DNA from: a virus
Strand: one strand, 5' to 3'
UHGV virus genome: UHGV-0178594
Length of the DNA stretch: 64,000 bases
Below, in pieces: positions 37,214 to 39,823 of the stretch (positions are counted from its first letter, which is position 1; each line of letters starts with the position of its first letter). The translations under genes and the position numbers were made by a program. Below the pieces are notes generated by a model. That model made no database searches and was not told where the DNA came from. It saw nothing but the letters and a program-made list of their open reading frames with translations.

Positions 37214-37251
37214 TTAGTAGTTAAAGCCCCGGCATGACCGGGGCAAATCTA

Positions 37252-38178
37252 TTAACTAACAATCCAGTCGGTCGCTGCTACATCTTCTGGCTGTAAATCA
37301 ATCGCACAGATCTTGCCGTCGCGAAAGGTGCGCCAGTTTTTCCGTGAGCCTCTTTCGGGCCATACCCAGACACTTTCAGGCCAGGATGCTCGACGGCATA
37401 CGGTTGCATACCCTGTTTTAATCTTCTCTCTGGCGGTATGCAACGACAGGTTTGCCTTTGGACTTTCAGGCACAGGATGGTGAATGGCCTGAAATAGCCC
37501 CATCCTGGGATGATACCAGCGTTTGTTGCGTGGTTCAGCCTCCGACATAACCTGCTTAAAGGCTTTCCGGAAGGGGGCCAGGGCCACAATGGAGCGTCTC
37601 GCAAGCAAACCATCGGGAGTTAAAAACTCATGCGTATCTGTGGGGATCCGGTAAGCGTTGACCAGGTTGCGGCATTTGGCTTCAGTCAGGCCGCATTTCG
37701 CCGCTAACTGGCGATAGCCAATGTAGCCTTCCGGAATATTGCCTTTCTTTATTTGCTCGACGGTTTCAGCGACTTTGGTCACTTGTGCCGATACTTCGGC
37801 TACCTGGGCATTAACGGCGTTGATCCGGCGTTCATGCTCAAGATGCATTTGCGCCATTTCGGCCAGAATTTCGGCTTTTGATTTTAACGGTCCTCTGGCA
37901 TTCTCCAGTTCGCGCCAGCGGTCCACCAGCCGGGCGGTGAATTCGGGAGAGAGCTGCGCGACGACGATAATGCTATCGCGCTTGCCTTGTTCGCCTTCGA
38001 AGACGTAATAGCTCGCCGGGCGGCCTGCAGTGGGCTTTTCCTCAATTTGAGGAAAAGTTATTACGCCCCGTTCCGCCAGGTGTTCAATGGTGCGTTTAAC
38101 GTTGTCAGGACGCTTACCCACCAGCTCCGCGATCTCAATACTGGTCATTGTCGCTTTTTGAGAGATGGACAGATTCAT
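37252..38178 (-). CDS. Rha-family regulatory protein / antirepressor candidate
   Basis: N-terminal ..MTSIEIAELVGKRPDNVKRTIEHL.. resembles the Rha/antirepressor N-terminal domain; coiled-coil middle. Confidence 0.5.
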   Translation of the reverse strand: MNLSISQKATMTSIEIAELVGKRPDNVKRTIEHLAERGVITFPQIEEKPTAGRPASYYVFEGEQGKRDSIIVVAQLSPEFTARLVDRWRELENARGPLKSKAEILAEMAQMHLEHERRINAVNAQVAEVSAQVTKVAETVEQIKKGNIPEGYIGYRQLAAKCGLTEAKCRNLVNAYRIPTDTHEFLTPDGLLARRSIVALAPFRKAFKQVMSEAEPRNKRWYHPRMGLFQAIHHPVPESPKANLSLHTAREKIKTGYATVCRRASWPESVWVWPERGSRKNWRTFRDGKICAIDLQPEDVAATDWIVS

Positions 38179-38393
38179 CAGTGCACCTCCACGCAGTTCA
38201 TTGGCAGATTCCAGTAATTGAGGATCTCCATCGCATCAAGAGTGAAGCGAGCAGCAAAAATGCAGGGTTCTTCGGGAAGGTATGAGCGCGCTTCTGCTTC
38301 GGTTGCAGCCATGACGCAGATATACAGGTGTTTTTGGCAGGAATAGAAACGCCAGATAAATTCAGAATGAGTTGGGGTAGGGATAGTAGCCAT
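38178..38393 (-). CDS. Small protein upstream of and overlapping the antirepressor gene (icd-like position)
   Basis: 71-aa ORF with strong RBS AAGGAGG; 1-bp overlap with the antirepressor start. Confidence 0.3.
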   Translation of the reverse strand: MATIPTPTHSEFIWRFYSCQKHLYICVMAATEAEARSYLPEEPCIFAARFTLDAMEILNYWNLPMNCVEVH

Positions 38394-38399
38394 ATTGGC

Positions 38400-38640
38400 A
38401 GCCTCCTTTGACTAAGTTAAGGAGCTACCGCGTGAGGTTCCAATCTCAATGGCGGTAGCACTGACTGGGTTGGAACTACCGGCGTCAAAGGGAACCGGCC
38501 TGCCTTTCGGCAGCCCAGCCAGCACTACCATTGATCTCTGAGCTAAACGCTAAGTATGGCTGTGCGATGGCATGACACAAAAAAAGACGCGTTCGGCGTC
38601 TGTGTCGCCTTTGACATTATCCGGGGTTCCAATCCCGGCA
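38400..38640 (-). ncRNA. Structured leader / candidate c4-like antisense regulatory RNA region
   Basis: Hairpins GCTACCGC..GCGGTAGC and CTGCCtttcGGCAG; GGTTCCAATC occurs twice (38427, 38619) with its complement TTGGAAC at 38466. Confidence 0.25.
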
Positions 38641-38706
38641 CCCGTTTTTCTAAGGTGCCGTAGAAATATACCCCACGATAATGCCAGGGCGCAACTGTGT
38701 GTTTTC

Positions 38707-38874
38707 TTATGCTTTTCTTTTCTTCTTTTGGGCTTGCTTGCAGGCGTAGGCCATTGCTTTAGCTTTCACTTCATCCAGCTTTCCGGTGATCACTTCTTTT
38801 CCGAGAGTGACAAACCAGTCATAGCAACCGCCAGTGATGTTCTGGATTTGAAAGTTGAGGTAGCGAACGGTCAT
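38707..38874 (-). CDS. Small basic protein (55 aa) MTVRYLNFQIQNITGGCYDWFVTLGKEVITGKLDEVKAKAMAYACKQAQKKKRKA
   Basis: Hand-translated; below the ORF-track cutoff. Confidence 0.25.
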   Translation of the reverse strand: MTVRYLNFQIQNITGGCYDWFVTLGKEVITGKLDEVKAKAMAYACKQAQKKKRKA

Positions 38875-39195
38875 TTTGACACCCCCAGCGCGAGTAAAGA
38901 ATGCAGATTATCGCGTGAGTGGCGGACAACGAGTGATGGGAAAAGACAGTAGCTGTTCATAGTGTAGTGACTCCTTGCTTTCGGAGCCGCCATCGACTGT
39001 TCCACGGTCTGGTGGCGGCGCAATAAAGGTTGGAACACCGTGAGTCAACGGGGGCTTTTCAGCCACCTATATTGCACCGCCATTGGTATGGCGGCGGCAA
39101 TCATACGAAAAACCAAACGGTTTGTCTCAAAAAGTTGACCGGTGTACCAATCGGTTGTGAATGTACAACGGCGAATCTCACAATTCAACTTAAAA

Positions 39196-39218
39196 TGTTA
39201 GAAAATTAATTTATCAAT
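39196..39218. promoter_or_regulatory. Operator-like element TGTTAGAAAATTAATTTATCAAT overlapping the ref stop codon
   Basis: Nearly identical to the element overlapping the dre stop codon at 58095. Confidence 0.4.
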
Positions 39219-39823
39219 TCAGTCACCATCTGATACAACGTCATTTCATCAGCATTGTGCCGCCTGAAATCTGCTTTGCCGCCTATTTTTCCATCAGCAT
39301 GAACAGGAACCAACCAGGGGTATTGCTCGCGGATCTCTGCTGGCGCTGCGTGTTGATGGTGCCATTTACACAAAGGGAGGACGTATTTATGCGCGTTCTC
39401 TGCTGTTCTCCCGAAGATGTGGTGCAGGGATACCACAGGGCTATGCTGTCCGTGCATATGGCAGGCAATGCAGGGGAGAGCACCGATGGCAGTTTGTATC
39501 CGGCGCTCATCTGCTGTGAGTGTTCTGCCTTTCAGGCCGCGTGACGCGCGAGTTTTTTTGACAGGAGCAGAAGCGGCCTTCTCTTTTCTTCGCTGTTCAT
39601 ATTGCTTCGCTTTTTCAATTTTCTTTTGCCGATATTCAGGCGATGCGGCTTTTTCTCGCGCACGCTGCTGCTGGCGTTGAGCTTGCTGAAGACGCTTTGC
39701 CCTTTGTTCCTCCCGCCATTTCGGATCAGCCAGTTTTTGCAGGGCTTTTTGTGTCTGTTTCTCCCAATAGCTTTGCTTCATAGAAATACCCGGTTTGTCT
39801 ACATCGCCGCTATGGTTGATCAA
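39206..39823 (-). CDS. ref: Ref-like HNH endonuclease (recombination enhancement function)
   Basis: K/R/Q-rich disordered N-terminal ~80 aa followed by HNH-type core ..CIACHMHG..HHIFGR..CKWHH..; matches the described architecture of P1 Ref. Confidence 0.6.
   Translation of the reverse strand: MINHSGDVDKPGISMKQSYWEKQTQKALQKLADPKWREEQRAKRLQQAQRQQQRAREKAASPEYRQKKIEKAKQYEQRRKEKAASAPVKKTRASRGLKGRTLTADERRIQTAIGALPCIACHMHGQHSPVVSLHHIFGRTAENAHKYVLPLCKWHHQHAAPAEIREQYPWLVPVHADGKIGGKADFRRHNADEMTLYQMVTELIN

What the first reader, a model, noticed from the sequence alone, without database searches (positions are those of the whole stretch)
37252..38640. Candidate immI-type module: structured leader RNA, small ORF and antirepressor
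Upstream of a small ORF that overlaps a Rha-type antirepressor gene lies ~240 bp of non-coding sequence with strong hairpins and a 10-nt element (GGTTCCAATC) present twice plus its complement once. This is the kind of self-complementary arrangement used by the c4 antisense RNA of P1 immI (c4-icd-ant) to occlude a downstream ribosome-binding site.
Basis: inference. Interest (0 to 1): 0.55.

Follow-up and report, generated by a model that had tools for sequence, protein, structure and literature searches.

The report
P1-type immI antirepressor control module

Summary
All genes lie on the minus strand.

- **RNAs.** Rfam places a C4 antisense RNA at 38448-38535 (77.1 bits, threshold 45) and an isrK RNA at 38580-38658 (61.3 bits, threshold 50).
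- **Genes.** Downstream lie an Icd-like gene (38178-38393, 63% identical to P1 Icd) and a Rha-family antirepressor (37252-38178).
- **Complementary sites.** C4 exposes two unpaired elements, b' CCUUUGAC and a' GUUCCAA. Each has an exact complement upstream in isrK (a1, b1) and downstream (a2, b2). Site b2 overlaps the icd Shine-Dalgarno sequence. P1 immI has the same layout.
- **Covariation.** In 104 distinct related sequences these sites change together: 47 address combinations, about 98% of cells paired, against 25-48% in slid controls.
- **Origin.** The window is a D6-like phage-plasmid, 92% identical to phage D6. The immI-related c4-icd-antirepressor region of this group is already described.

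It missed the 'b' set, the isrK terminator, and a second, weaker C4-like module just upstream (39008-39087). The antirepressor is not homologous to P1 Ant1.

Novelty: already known. Interest is low.

The parts
38665..38694 (-). Candidate sigma-70 promoter of the module: -35 TTGCGC (38694-38689), 18-nt spacer, -10 TATATT (38670-38665), 6 nt before the first base of isrK.
   Evidence: Read from the sequence. In alignment A1 the -10 hexamers of the other subfamilies (TACACT, TATAGT) fall at the same columns. The consensus scan did not list it. Inferred, not shown.
38580..38658 (-). isrK-type leader RNA carrying the upstream C4 target sites and ending in an intrinsic terminator.
   Evidence: Rfam RF01394, 61.3 bits against gathering 50, full length. 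Hairpins 1 and 2 are 99.5% paired with compensatory changes across 104 sequences.
38626..38632 (-). a1 site UUGGAAC, displayed in the loop of isrK hairpin 2.
   Evidence: Exact complement of a'. It covaries with a'.
38608..38615 (-). b1 site GUCAAAGG, in the spacer just upstream of the isrK terminator.
   Evidence: Exact complement of b'. It covaries with b'.
38578..38601 (-). Intrinsic terminator of isrK: stem-loop AGACGCCGAACGCGUCU (38601-38585) followed by seven U.
   Evidence: Terminator scan. It is part of the Rfam isrK consensus structure.
38448..38535 (-). C4 antisense RNA gene: a Y-shaped fold with a 16-bp closing stem and two hairpins.
   Evidence: Rfam RF01695, 77.1 bits against gathering 45, E 2.4e-13. 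Fold -46.5 kcal/mol, z -5.0. Its three helices are 98.2-99.9% paired, and 18 of their 27 pairs show compensatory changes.
38484..38491 (-). b' element CCUUUGAC in the loop of C4 hairpin 2.
   Evidence: It pairs with b1 and b2, with covariation.
38470..38476 (-). a' element GUUCCAA in the single-stranded junction of C4.
   Evidence: It pairs with a1 and a2, with covariation.
38434..38447 (-). Small hairpin GAG-AUUGGAAC-CUC that displays the a2 site (UUGGAAC, 38437-38443) in its loop.
   Evidence: The 3-bp stem is 96.3% paired, all three pairs with compensatory changes.
38424..38431 (-). Segment GCGGUAGC, which can pair with the 3' strand of the C4 closing stem (38452-38459). This helix is mutually exclusive with the C4 fold.
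   Evidence: RNAalifold consensus. 96% paired, 6 of 8 pairs with compensatory changes, slid controls 32-54%.
38402..38412 (-). b2 site GUCAAAGG (38412-38405) overlapping the Shine-Dalgarno GGAGG (38406-38402) of the icd-like gene.
   Evidence: The last two G of b2 are the first two of GGAGG in all 104 sequences. Covariation with b'.
38178..38393 (-). Icd-like gene, 71 aa.
   Evidence: 63% identity to P1 Icd over 59 aa, E 6e-28. NCBIfam NF033153 phage_ICD_like, 49.4 bits against cut-off 25. Annotated as Icd-like in phage D6 and in plasmids.
37252..38178 (-). Rha-family antirepressor gene, 308 aa. Its start overlaps the icd stop by one base (UGAUG) and it has its own GGAGG 8 nt upstream.
   Evidence: PHROG 63 'anti-repressor Ant', E 5.9e-62. 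Pfam Phage_pRha 30.5 bits. Annotated 'anti-repressor Ant' in D6. Not homologous to P1 Ant1.
37221..37244 (-). Hairpin GCCCCGG-UCAUG-CCGGGGC followed by UUUAA, directly after the ant stop codon. A possible terminator of the operon.
   Evidence: Read from the sequence. The terminator scan did not list it because the U-run is short. Inferred.
39008..39087 (-). Second, divergent C4-like RNA (C4-2), with a' GUUCCAA (39030-39036) and loop UGACUC (39042-39047).
   Evidence: Rfam C4, 42.3 bits, just below gathering 45, E 1.1e-4 on the whole window. Same Y-shaped fold, -36.5 kcal/mol, z -5.3. Conserved in D6 and in 119 plasmid records.
38968..39004 (-). Putative targets of C4-2: UGGAAC(A) at 39004-38998, and GAGUCA at 38973-38968 inside the Shine-Dalgarno AAGGAG of the next small ORF.
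   Evidence: The sites are invariant in the relatives examined, so there is no covariation test. Inferred.
38707..38960 (-). Cargo of the second module: a 29-codon ORF (38960-38871), apparently an icd gene with an internal deletion, joined by an AUGA overlap to a 55-aa ORF (38874-38707).
   Evidence: In E. fergusonii and S. dysenteriae D6-like plasmids the same position holds a 61-aa Icd-like gene followed by the same 55-aa ORF. The 55-aa ORF matches PHROG 7786, E 9e-42.

Best explanation
The region is the immI-type immunity module of a D6-like (P1-related) phage-plasmid.

One minus-strand transcription unit starts at about 38658 and contains, in order:
1. an isrK-type leader with target sites a1 and b1 and an intrinsic terminator;
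2. the C4 antisense RNA;
3. target sites a2 and b2;
4. an icd-like gene;
5. an overlapping antirepressor gene.

**Proposed mechanism.**
- C4 is cut out of the leader of read-through transcripts. In P1, P7 and P4 this is done by RNase P.
- C4 then acts on the same kind of transcript. Its junction element a' (GUUCCAA) pairs with a2, which is displayed in a hairpin loop. Its loop element b' (CCUUUGAC) pairs with b2, which covers the first bases of the icd Shine-Dalgarno sequence.
- icd is therefore not translated. Because ant starts on the icd stop codon, ant is not expressed either, and the prophage repressor stays active.
- The upstream a1/b1 copies bind the same C4 elements. They do so either in cis, giving a conformation of the precursor that competes with the C4 fold, or in trans as the short terminated isrK RNA. 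Either way they set how much free C4 is available.
- The 7-nt and 8-nt elements act as address labels, so only a matching C4 represses a given element.

**Shown here:** the identity and fold of the RNAs, the positions of all six sites, their covariation, and Icd homology.

**Inferred from P1, P4 and Gifsy-1:** processing of C4, translational block and coupling, antirepressor activity, and the role of a1/b1.
For: - **RNA identity.** Rfam C4 at 77.1 bits and isrK at 61.3 bits, both above their gathering scores.
- **Layout.** The order of sites is the same as in the annotated P1 immI region: operator/promoters, a1, b1, c4, a2, b2, icd, ant1.
- **Complementarity.** Exact 7-nt and 8-nt complements lie on both sides of C4. 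All four together never arose in 200,000 shuffles.
- **Covariation.** Across 104 distinct sequences with 47 address combinations:
  - a'/a2 and b'/b2 are 97.6% paired, with 12 of 15 pairs showing compensatory changes, against 25-48% for slid controls;
  - a1/a' and b1/b' are 97.8% paired, 13 of 15;
  - C4 helices are 98-99.9% paired.
- **Overlap with the ribosome-binding site.** b2 overlaps GGAGG in every sequence.
- **Proteins.** Icd is 63% identical to P1 Icd. The downstream gene matches the Ant PHROG at E 5.9e-62.
- **Close relatives.** The window is 92% identical to phage D6, which annotates the Icd-like and Ant genes. The D6-like plasmid pYU39_89 is described as having an ImmI-related c4, icd and antirepressor (PMC6799933).
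- **Experimental precedent for a1 pairing.** In Gifsy-1, compensatory mutations showed that the middle of IsrK pairs with the downstream RNA and controls translation of the antirepressor-like gene (PMC4825925).
Against: - No expression, processing or binding data exist for this element.
- The antirepressor is not homologous to P1 Ant1/Ant2, so its target and activity are assumed from family annotation.
- No P1-type C1 operator was found anywhere in the window with up to 3 mismatches, so the link to the main repressor is unknown.
- The isrK terminator directly after a1/b1, and the P4 precedent, leave open that control is largely at the level of transcription termination.
- The promoter is a modest consensus match that the scan did not report.
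Confidence: 0.88

Rival explanations
1. P4-type control. C4 works mainly by causing premature transcription termination, not by blocking the ribosome-binding site. Pairing with a1/b1 next to the isrK terminator, and with a2/b2 further on, stops transcription before icd-ant. This is how CI RNA acts with seqA and seqC in satellite phage P4.
For: - An intrinsic terminator (38601-38585 plus seven U) lies 6 nt after b1.
- The Rfam C4 and isrK models also detect relatives of P4 CI and seqA (PMC10111431).
- IsrK is called a structural homologue of SeqA (PMC4825925).
- a1/b1 covary with C4 as strongly as a2/b2 do, so the upstream sites are under selection.
Against: - b2 overlaps the Shine-Dalgarno sequence in all 104 sequences. 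Termination control alone would not require this.
- The closest characterised relative by gene content (icd plus antirepressor) is P1, where translational repression is the established mechanism.
- The two modes are not exclusive. In P1, blocked icd translation is held to cause polar loss of ant transcription.
Confidence: 0.3
2. Gifsy-1 IsrK-type activation is the dominant logic. The full-length transcript is locked in an inactive fold in which a1/b1 pair in cis with the C4 region. The short terminated isrK RNA acts in trans as an activator, or C4 sponge, that opens the leader and switches icd-ant translation on.
For: - The minimum-energy fold of the whole precursor (38658-38380) pairs a1/b1 with a'/b' in cis and pairs the C4 3' strand with the downstream segment.
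- That alternative helix is conserved with compensatory changes.
- The Gifsy-1 experiments demonstrate such a switch (PMC4825925).
Against: - In Gifsy-1 the regulated upstream ORF (orf45) overlaps the C4-like RNA itself. Here a separate icd gene follows with its own strong Shine-Dalgarno sequence, and the ORF inside C4 is closed by a stop codon in this window.
- This reading complements C4 repression rather than replacing it.
- No data exist for this element.
Confidence: 0.35
3. The conserved stretch encodes a small protein of the 'Ash' family rather than, or as well as, an RNA. The repeats would then be incidental to coding sequence.
For: - ORF 38412-38531 (39 aa, same strand as C4) matches Pfam Phage_ASH at 32.2 bits against cut-off 26.
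- NCBI's annotation calls it an 'ash family protein' in the closest plasmid.
- In 91 of 104 relatives this frame stays open into the downstream start codon.
- orf45 of Gifsy-1 was detected as a tagged protein (PMC4825925).
Against: - Variation is the same at all three codon positions: entropy 0.76, 0.76 and 0.79.
- Substitutions are compensatory for RNA helices, which are 98-99.9% paired.
- The AUG lies inside the closing stem with no good Shine-Dalgarno sequence.
- In this window and its D6-like relatives the frame is closed by a stop.
- Coding cannot explain the three-way covariation of the a and b sites.
Confidence: 0.07

Closest known systems
Phage P1/P7 immI region (c4-icd-ant1/ant2)
   Same: - Same order on one strand: promoter, a1, b1, a terminator-like hairpin, C4 RNA, a2, b2 at the icd ribosome-binding site, icd, and an overlapping antirepressor gene.
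- Same C4 fold, with a' in the junction and b' in the hairpin-2 loop.
- Icd is 63% identical.
- Both are plasmid prophages of enterobacteria.
   Different: - The address sequences differ: a is UUGGAAC here and UUGACAG in P1; b is GUCAAAGG here and GUUAGUGA in P1.
- The antirepressor is a Rha-family protein with no significant similarity to Ant1/Ant2, and there is no internal second start.
- No P1-type C1 operator was found.
- kilA-repL do not follow.
- A second C4-like module precedes it.
Phage D6 and D6-like plasmid prophages (for example pYU39_89)
   Same: - 92-94% nucleotide identity across the module, and 97% to E. marmotae plasmids.
- Same genes, the same second C4-like element, and the same neighbours (ref, simB-like).
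- The ImmI-related c4, icd and antirepressor, and a second antisense-RNA/icd region, are already noted in PMC6799933.
   Different: Both address elements differ from D6. D6 has a = UUGAGAC and b = GCAAAAGG, changed consistently at a1, a', a2 and at b1, b', b2. The window's element is therefore predicted to be insensitive to D6 C4, and D6 to the window's C4.
isrK-orf45-anrP locus of Salmonella prophage Gifsy-1 (IsrK with STnc1160)
   Same: - An isrK RNA with its own terminator, a processed C4-like RNA downstream, then an antirepressor-like gene whose translation depends on an upstream ORF.
- Pairing between the middle of IsrK and the downstream RNA.
   Different: - In Gifsy-1 the coupling ORF (orf45) overlaps the C4-like RNA. 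Here a separate Icd-like gene is the coupling ORF.
- Gifsy-1 is an integrated lambdoid prophage, and its output is the antiterminator AntQ.
Satellite phage P4 immunity (CI RNA with seqA, seqB, seqC)
   Same: - An RNA of the same Rfam family, cut from the leader of the transcript it controls, with complementary sites on both sides.
- isrK corresponds to the seqA region.
   Different: - P4 CI acts by premature transcription termination on replication genes.
- P4 has no icd-antirepressor cargo.
- The site at the ribosome-binding site is not the key feature there.
Rfam RF03163 c4-a1b1 (a1, b1 targets of C4 antisense RNA; clan CL00128)
   Same: A curated family for the upstream target region. It overlaps isrK hits in related loci.
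   Different: It did not reach E 0.1 in this window, where the same region is detected by the isrK model instead.

Membership tests
P1-type immI module (c4-icd-ant) | A C4 antisense RNA gene with the family's Y-shaped fold. | tested here: met
   RF01695, 77.1 bits against gathering 45, full length. z -5.0. Helices 98-99.9% paired across 104 sequences.
P1-type immI module (c4-icd-ant) | Unpaired elements a' and b' in C4 are complementary to a2 and b2 downstream on the same strand, with b2 at the ribosome-binding site of the next ORF. | tested here: met
   7-nt and 8-nt exact complements. b2 overlaps GGAGG. 97.6% paired with compensatory changes.
P1-type immI module (c4-icd-ant) | A second copy of the targets (a1, b1) upstream of C4. 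| tested here: met
   a1 at 38626-38632 and b1 at 38608-38615. 97.8% paired across 104 sequences.
P1-type immI module (c4-icd-ant) | An icd homologue as the first ORF after C4. | tested here: met
   63% identity to P1 Icd, E 6e-28. NF033153, 49.4 bits.
P1-type immI module (c4-icd-ant) | The antirepressor gene overlaps the end of icd, allowing translational coupling. | tested here: met
   The stop UGA (38180-38178) and the start AUG (38178-38176) share one base. The coupling itself was not tested.
P1-type immI module (c4-icd-ant) | The antirepressor is homologous to P1 Ant1/Ant2. | tested here: not met
   BLASTP best E 0.014 over a 67-aa stretch. The protein is Rha-family / PHROG 63.
P1-type immI module (c4-icd-ant) | A C1-controlled operator at the c4 promoter (Op51/Oc4). 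| tested here: inconclusive
   The P1 operator consensus has no match in the window with up to 3 mismatches. The operator sequence of the D6-type repressor is not known to me, so absence of control cannot be concluded.
P1-type immI module (c4-icd-ant) | C4 is matured from the precursor by RNase P and represses icd/ant in vivo. | not testable with these tools
   The conserved CNCCA-like 3' end (invariant C253, C255, C256) is compatible, but no processing data exist.
isrK (Rfam RF01394) | Three-hairpin RNA ending in an intrinsic terminator, scoring above the family threshold. | tested here: met
   61.3 bits against gathering 50. Terminator found. Hairpins 1-2 are 99.5% paired.
isrK (Rfam RF01394) | Hfq binding and trans-activation of the downstream ORF. 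| not testable with these tools
   Known only for Gifsy-1 (PMC4825925).
P4-type CI immunity | The antisense RNA causes premature transcription termination. | not testable with these tools
   A terminator follows a1/b1, but its dependence on C4 cannot be computed.
Pfam Phage_ASH protein family | A translated protein under coding constraint. | tested here: not met
   The Pfam hit is 32.2 bits, but there is no excess variation at third codon positions (0.76, 0.76, 0.79), and the frame is closed in this window. The sequence is explained by the C4 RNA.

The most novel reading that the evidence does not exclude
The a and b elements may form a two-part address code that reassorts freely.

- Among 104 sequences there are 47 combinations.
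- Among close D6-like and P1-like relatives, all four combinations of two a alleles (UUGGAAC, UUGAGAC) and two b alleles (GUCAAAGG, GCAAAAGG) occur.
- The window differs from phage D6 at both elements despite about 94% identity.

If a matching a and b are both needed, this region would be a fast-evolving determinant of which co-resident or superinfecting phage-plasmids can keep each other's antirepressor silent.

The window also carries a second C4-like RNA. Its a' (GUUCCAA) matches the a sites of the main module in this window but not in D6. This raises the possibility of cross-talk between the two tandem modules. None of this is tested.
Probability: 0.3. Interest if true: 0.4.

Novelty: already known. 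Interest (0 to 1): 0.2.

Why it matters
The result mainly corrects annotation.

- It identifies two RNA genes and six regulatory sites in a stretch where public records place only a doubtful 'ash family protein' ORF or nothing.
- It shows that the first-stage reader can recognise an antisense-RNA module from raw sequence.
- For phage-plasmid biology, the practical point is that this element carries C4 address sequences different from those of phage D6. The two should therefore not cross-repress each other's antirepressor, as is already known for P1 and P7.
- It does not reveal a new kind of system.

Tried and rejected
- **Chance repeat.** Rejected. All four exact complements together never arose in 200,000 shuffles, and they covary.
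- **tRNA or tmRNA.** None in the window.
- **Second copy of the leader elsewhere in the window.** A self-BLAST found none. The second C4-like element was seen only by the covariance model at relaxed threshold.
- **P1-type C1 operator.** No match with up to 3 mismatches.
- **Homology of the antirepressor to P1 Ant1.** Not supported.
- **Second icd homologue in the window.** tblastn found nothing. The 29-codon ORF after C4-2 was linked to icd only through synteny with E. fergusonii and S. dysenteriae plasmids.
- **Protein-coding reading of the C4 region (Pfam Phage_ASH).** Rejected on codon-position variability and RNA covariation.
- **The isrK terminator helix in alignment A1.** It scored only 39% paired. 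This is an alignment offset between subfamilies, not evidence against the terminator.
- **The D6 genome paper (PMC5800970).** It could not be read.
- **RNAduplex energies.** They overstate the binding, because they let bases of the C4 stems pair. I do not rely on them.
- **An antiterminator hairpin competing with the isrK terminator.** I considered this from the sequence. It was too weak and too poorly conserved to claim.
Full report
**What is in the sequence.** All relevant genes lie on the minus strand. A 308-aa ORF (37252-38178) has a Phage_pRha N-terminus. It matches the antirepressor family PHROG 63 over its whole length, E 5.9e-62. A 71-aa ORF (38178-38393) ends on its start codon; the two share one base (UGAUG). 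Upstream, no convincing ORF occurs until 38707.

Its exact complement is absent. Only the 7-nt core is found, at 38470-38476, and again at 39030-39036.

**Identification.** A scan of the whole window against Rfam gave exactly two matches above the curated thresholds:
- C4 antisense RNA (RF01695) at 38448-38535, minus strand, 77.1 bits (threshold 45);
- isrK (RF01394) at 38580-38658, minus strand, 61.3 bits (threshold 50).

The C4 stretch folds into the family's Y shape at -46.5 kcal/mol (z -5.0). The opposite strand does not (z -1.1). The small ORF is an Icd homologue: 63% identity to P1 Icd and NCBIfam phage_ICD_like at 49.4 bits.

The window is about 92% identical to Escherichia phage D6, a P1-related plasmid prophage. 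It is 97% identical to Escherichia marmotae plasmids, and 449 plasmid records match. D6 annotates the two genes as 'Icd-like, similar to P1 icd' and 'anti-repressor Ant'.

**Anatomy compared with P1.** The GenBank record of P1 annotates, in order: operator Oc4, promoters, a1, b1, the c4 RNA, a2, b2, icd, ant1. Reading the window in the same direction gives the same series:
1. A candidate promoter: -35 TTGCGC at 38694, -10 TATATT at 38670.
2. isrK, with a1 UUGGAAC (38632-38626) in the loop of its second hairpin and b1 GUCAAAGG (38615-38608). It ends in an intrinsic terminator (38601-38585 plus seven U).
3. C4, with b' CCUUUGAC (38491-38484) in the loop of hairpin 2 and a' GUUCCAA (38476-38470) in the single-stranded junction.
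4. a2 UUGGAAC (38443-38437), in the loop of a 3-bp hairpin.
5. b2 GUCAAAGG (38412-38405). Its last two G are the first two of the Shine-Dalgarno GGAGG.
6. The icd start at 38393.

The b set, which is the one that covers the ribosome-binding site, was not noticed. In 200,000 shuffles of the flanks the four exact complements never arose together.

Ten annotated phage loci already showed a1/a'/a2 and b1/b'/b2 changing together:

| Element | a | b |
|---|---|---|
| window | UUGGAAC | GUCAAAGG |
| D6 | UUGAGAC | GCAAAAGG |
| RCS47 | UUGAGAC | GUCAAAGG |
| P1 | UUGACAG | GUUAGUGA |

Several Stx phages carry other variants.

A pattern scan of viral contigs for the conserved Shine-Dalgarno/start region brought in more loci. 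Together they gave 104 distinct leader sequences with 47 different a/b combinations. Counting pairs on that alignment gave:

| Pairing | Cells paired | Pairs with compensatory change | Slid controls |
|---|---|---|---|
| a'/a2 and b'/b2 | 97.6% | 12 of 15 | 25-48% |
| a1/a' and b1/b' | 97.8% | 13 of 15 | 33-44% |
| C4 helices | 98.2-99.9% | 18 of 27 | not separated |
| isrK hairpins 1-2 | 99.5% | 9 of 10 | not separated |

For the first two rows the covariation score was about 0.81, against about 0.17 in shuffles. One search ran one set of slid controls on the whole 43-pair structure, terminator helix included: 91.2% of cells paired, against 33-53% when slid. The criterion for refutation is clearly not met.

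**Mechanism.** The established model for P1 and P7, recalled from the literature on c4 and matching the notes in the P1 record, runs as follows:
- C4 is processed from the leader of the same transcript.
- It pairs with a2 and b2 and blocks icd translation.
- ant expression depends on icd translation.

The anatomy and covariation here fit that model at every point that sequence can test.

The upstream sites are as strongly constrained as the downstream ones, so they are functional, not vestigial. Rfam already curates them as family c4-a1b1 in the C4 clan.

Two published relatives suggest what they do. In P4, pairing of CI RNA with seqA promotes termination. In Gifsy-1, the middle of IsrK pairs in cis with the downstream RNA to give an inactive fold, and short IsrK in trans relieves it (PMC4825925).

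Consistent with the Gifsy-1 picture:
- The minimum-energy fold of the whole precursor pairs a1/b1 with a'/b'.
- The 3' strand of the C4 closing stem (38452-38459) has a conserved alternative partner downstream (38424-38431). This helix is 96% paired, with 6 of 8 pairs showing compensatory changes.

I therefore rank P1-type translational repression first. Termination control and isrK-mediated relief are likely additional layers, not true alternatives.

**Differences from P1.**
- The antirepressor is not homologous to Ant1/Ant2.
- No P1-type C1 operator is found.
- The address sequences are different.
- A second module lies directly upstream.

**The second module.** At relaxed threshold Rfam reports a second C4-like RNA at 39008-39087, 42.3 bits, just under the threshold of 45. 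It has the same Y-shaped fold (z -5.3).

Its loop UGACUC is complementary to GAGUCA inside the Shine-Dalgarno sequence of a 29-codon ORF starting at 38960. Its a' is complementary to UGGAAC(A) at 39004-38998. It also has the alternative downstream partner for its 3' strand.

It is conserved in D6 and in 119 plasmid records. In E. fergusonii and S. dysenteriae plasmids the same RNA is followed by a full 61-aa Icd-like gene and the same 55-aa ORF. The window's 29-codon ORF therefore looks like an icd gene with an internal deletion.

[quoted passage not shown] Its sites are invariant in the relatives found, so no covariation test was possible.

**The 'ash' ORF.** Public annotation of the closest plasmid places an 'ash family protein' CDS at the position of ORF 38412-38531, inside C4 on the same strand. 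It matches Pfam Phage_ASH.

In 91 of 104 relatives that frame runs open into the downstream start codon. However, variation is equal at all three codon positions, and the substitutions are those expected for RNA helices. I regard the protein call as most likely a by-product of the conserved RNA. One caveat: orf45 of Gifsy-1 was detected experimentally.

**Verdict.** The module is a known kind in a known phage-plasmid lineage. Both of its RNAs are in Rfam, and its presence in D6-like elements is already published. Interest is low. The only mildly new points are the allele difference from D6, the scale of the a/b reassortment, and the anatomy of the second module.

Noticed in passing
window 38968-39190 (minus strand): A second, divergent C4-like RNA lies at 39008-39087 (42.3 bits, just below Rfam's threshold). 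It has its own putative targets and a candidate promoter (-35 TTGAAT 39188-39183, -10 TACATT 39165-39160). An a1-like UUGGUAC sits in a hairpin loop at 39150-39144. No isrK or c4-a1b1 model hit covers this leader.
   Followed up: partly
window 38707-38960 (minus strand); L132 1364-1777; L133 1364-1777: The 29-codon ORF after the second C4-like RNA appears to be an icd gene with an internal deletion. E. fergusonii and S. dysenteriae D6-like plasmids have a 61-aa Icd-like gene there, followed by the same 55-aa ORF (PHROG 7786, function unknown).
   Followed up: partly
window 38412-38531 (minus strand): A 39-aa ORF inside the C4 RNA gene matches Pfam Phage_ASH and is annotated 'ash family protein' in the closest plasmid. 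The family profile seems to be built at least partly on translated C4 RNA. The frame is open into the downstream ATG in 91 of 104 relatives, yet shows no codon-position signal.
   Followed up: partly
window 38452-38459 with 38424-38431 (minus strand): A conserved alternative helix joins the 3' strand of the C4 closing stem to a downstream segment, enclosing the a2 hairpin. It is mutually exclusive with the C4 fold, 96% paired, with 6 of 8 pairs showing compensatory changes. A similar pairing is possible for the second C4-like RNA, and roughly so in P1.
   Followed up: partly
window 38405-38632 versus L001 (phage D6) 5195-5518: At about 94% overall identity, the window and D6 differ at both address elements, consistently at all three copies of each. 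RCS47 combines D6's a with the window's b, and other contigs carry the fourth combination. This predicts immI heteroimmunity within the D6-like and P1-like groups.
   Followed up: partly
L099 1007-2117; also L115, L123, L023: Some viral contigs carry two or three complete isrK-C4 modules in tandem, about 385 nt apart in L099. Each has a different a/b address and is followed by the same short conserved start region (MATTPTPKHP...).
   Followed up: no
L005 2544-2627 and L010 2523-2606 (Stx-type phages): An sRNA-Xcc1 (RF02221) match at 79.6 bits lies about 0.9 kb downstream of the isrK-C4 pair, next to an antB-like gene and the antiterminator gene.
   Followed up: no
window 37221-37244 (minus strand): A G+C-rich hairpin (GCCCCGG-UCAUG-CCGGGGC) followed by UUUAA lies directly after the antirepressor stop codon. 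It may be the operon's terminator, but the consensus scan did not report it.
   Followed up: no
window 39206-39823 (minus strand): The gene upstream of the two modules is a Ref-type RecA-dependent nuclease (Pfam RecA_dep_nuc, E 6.2e-36), as in D6. In P1 the sim genes occupy the position upstream of c4.
   Followed up: no
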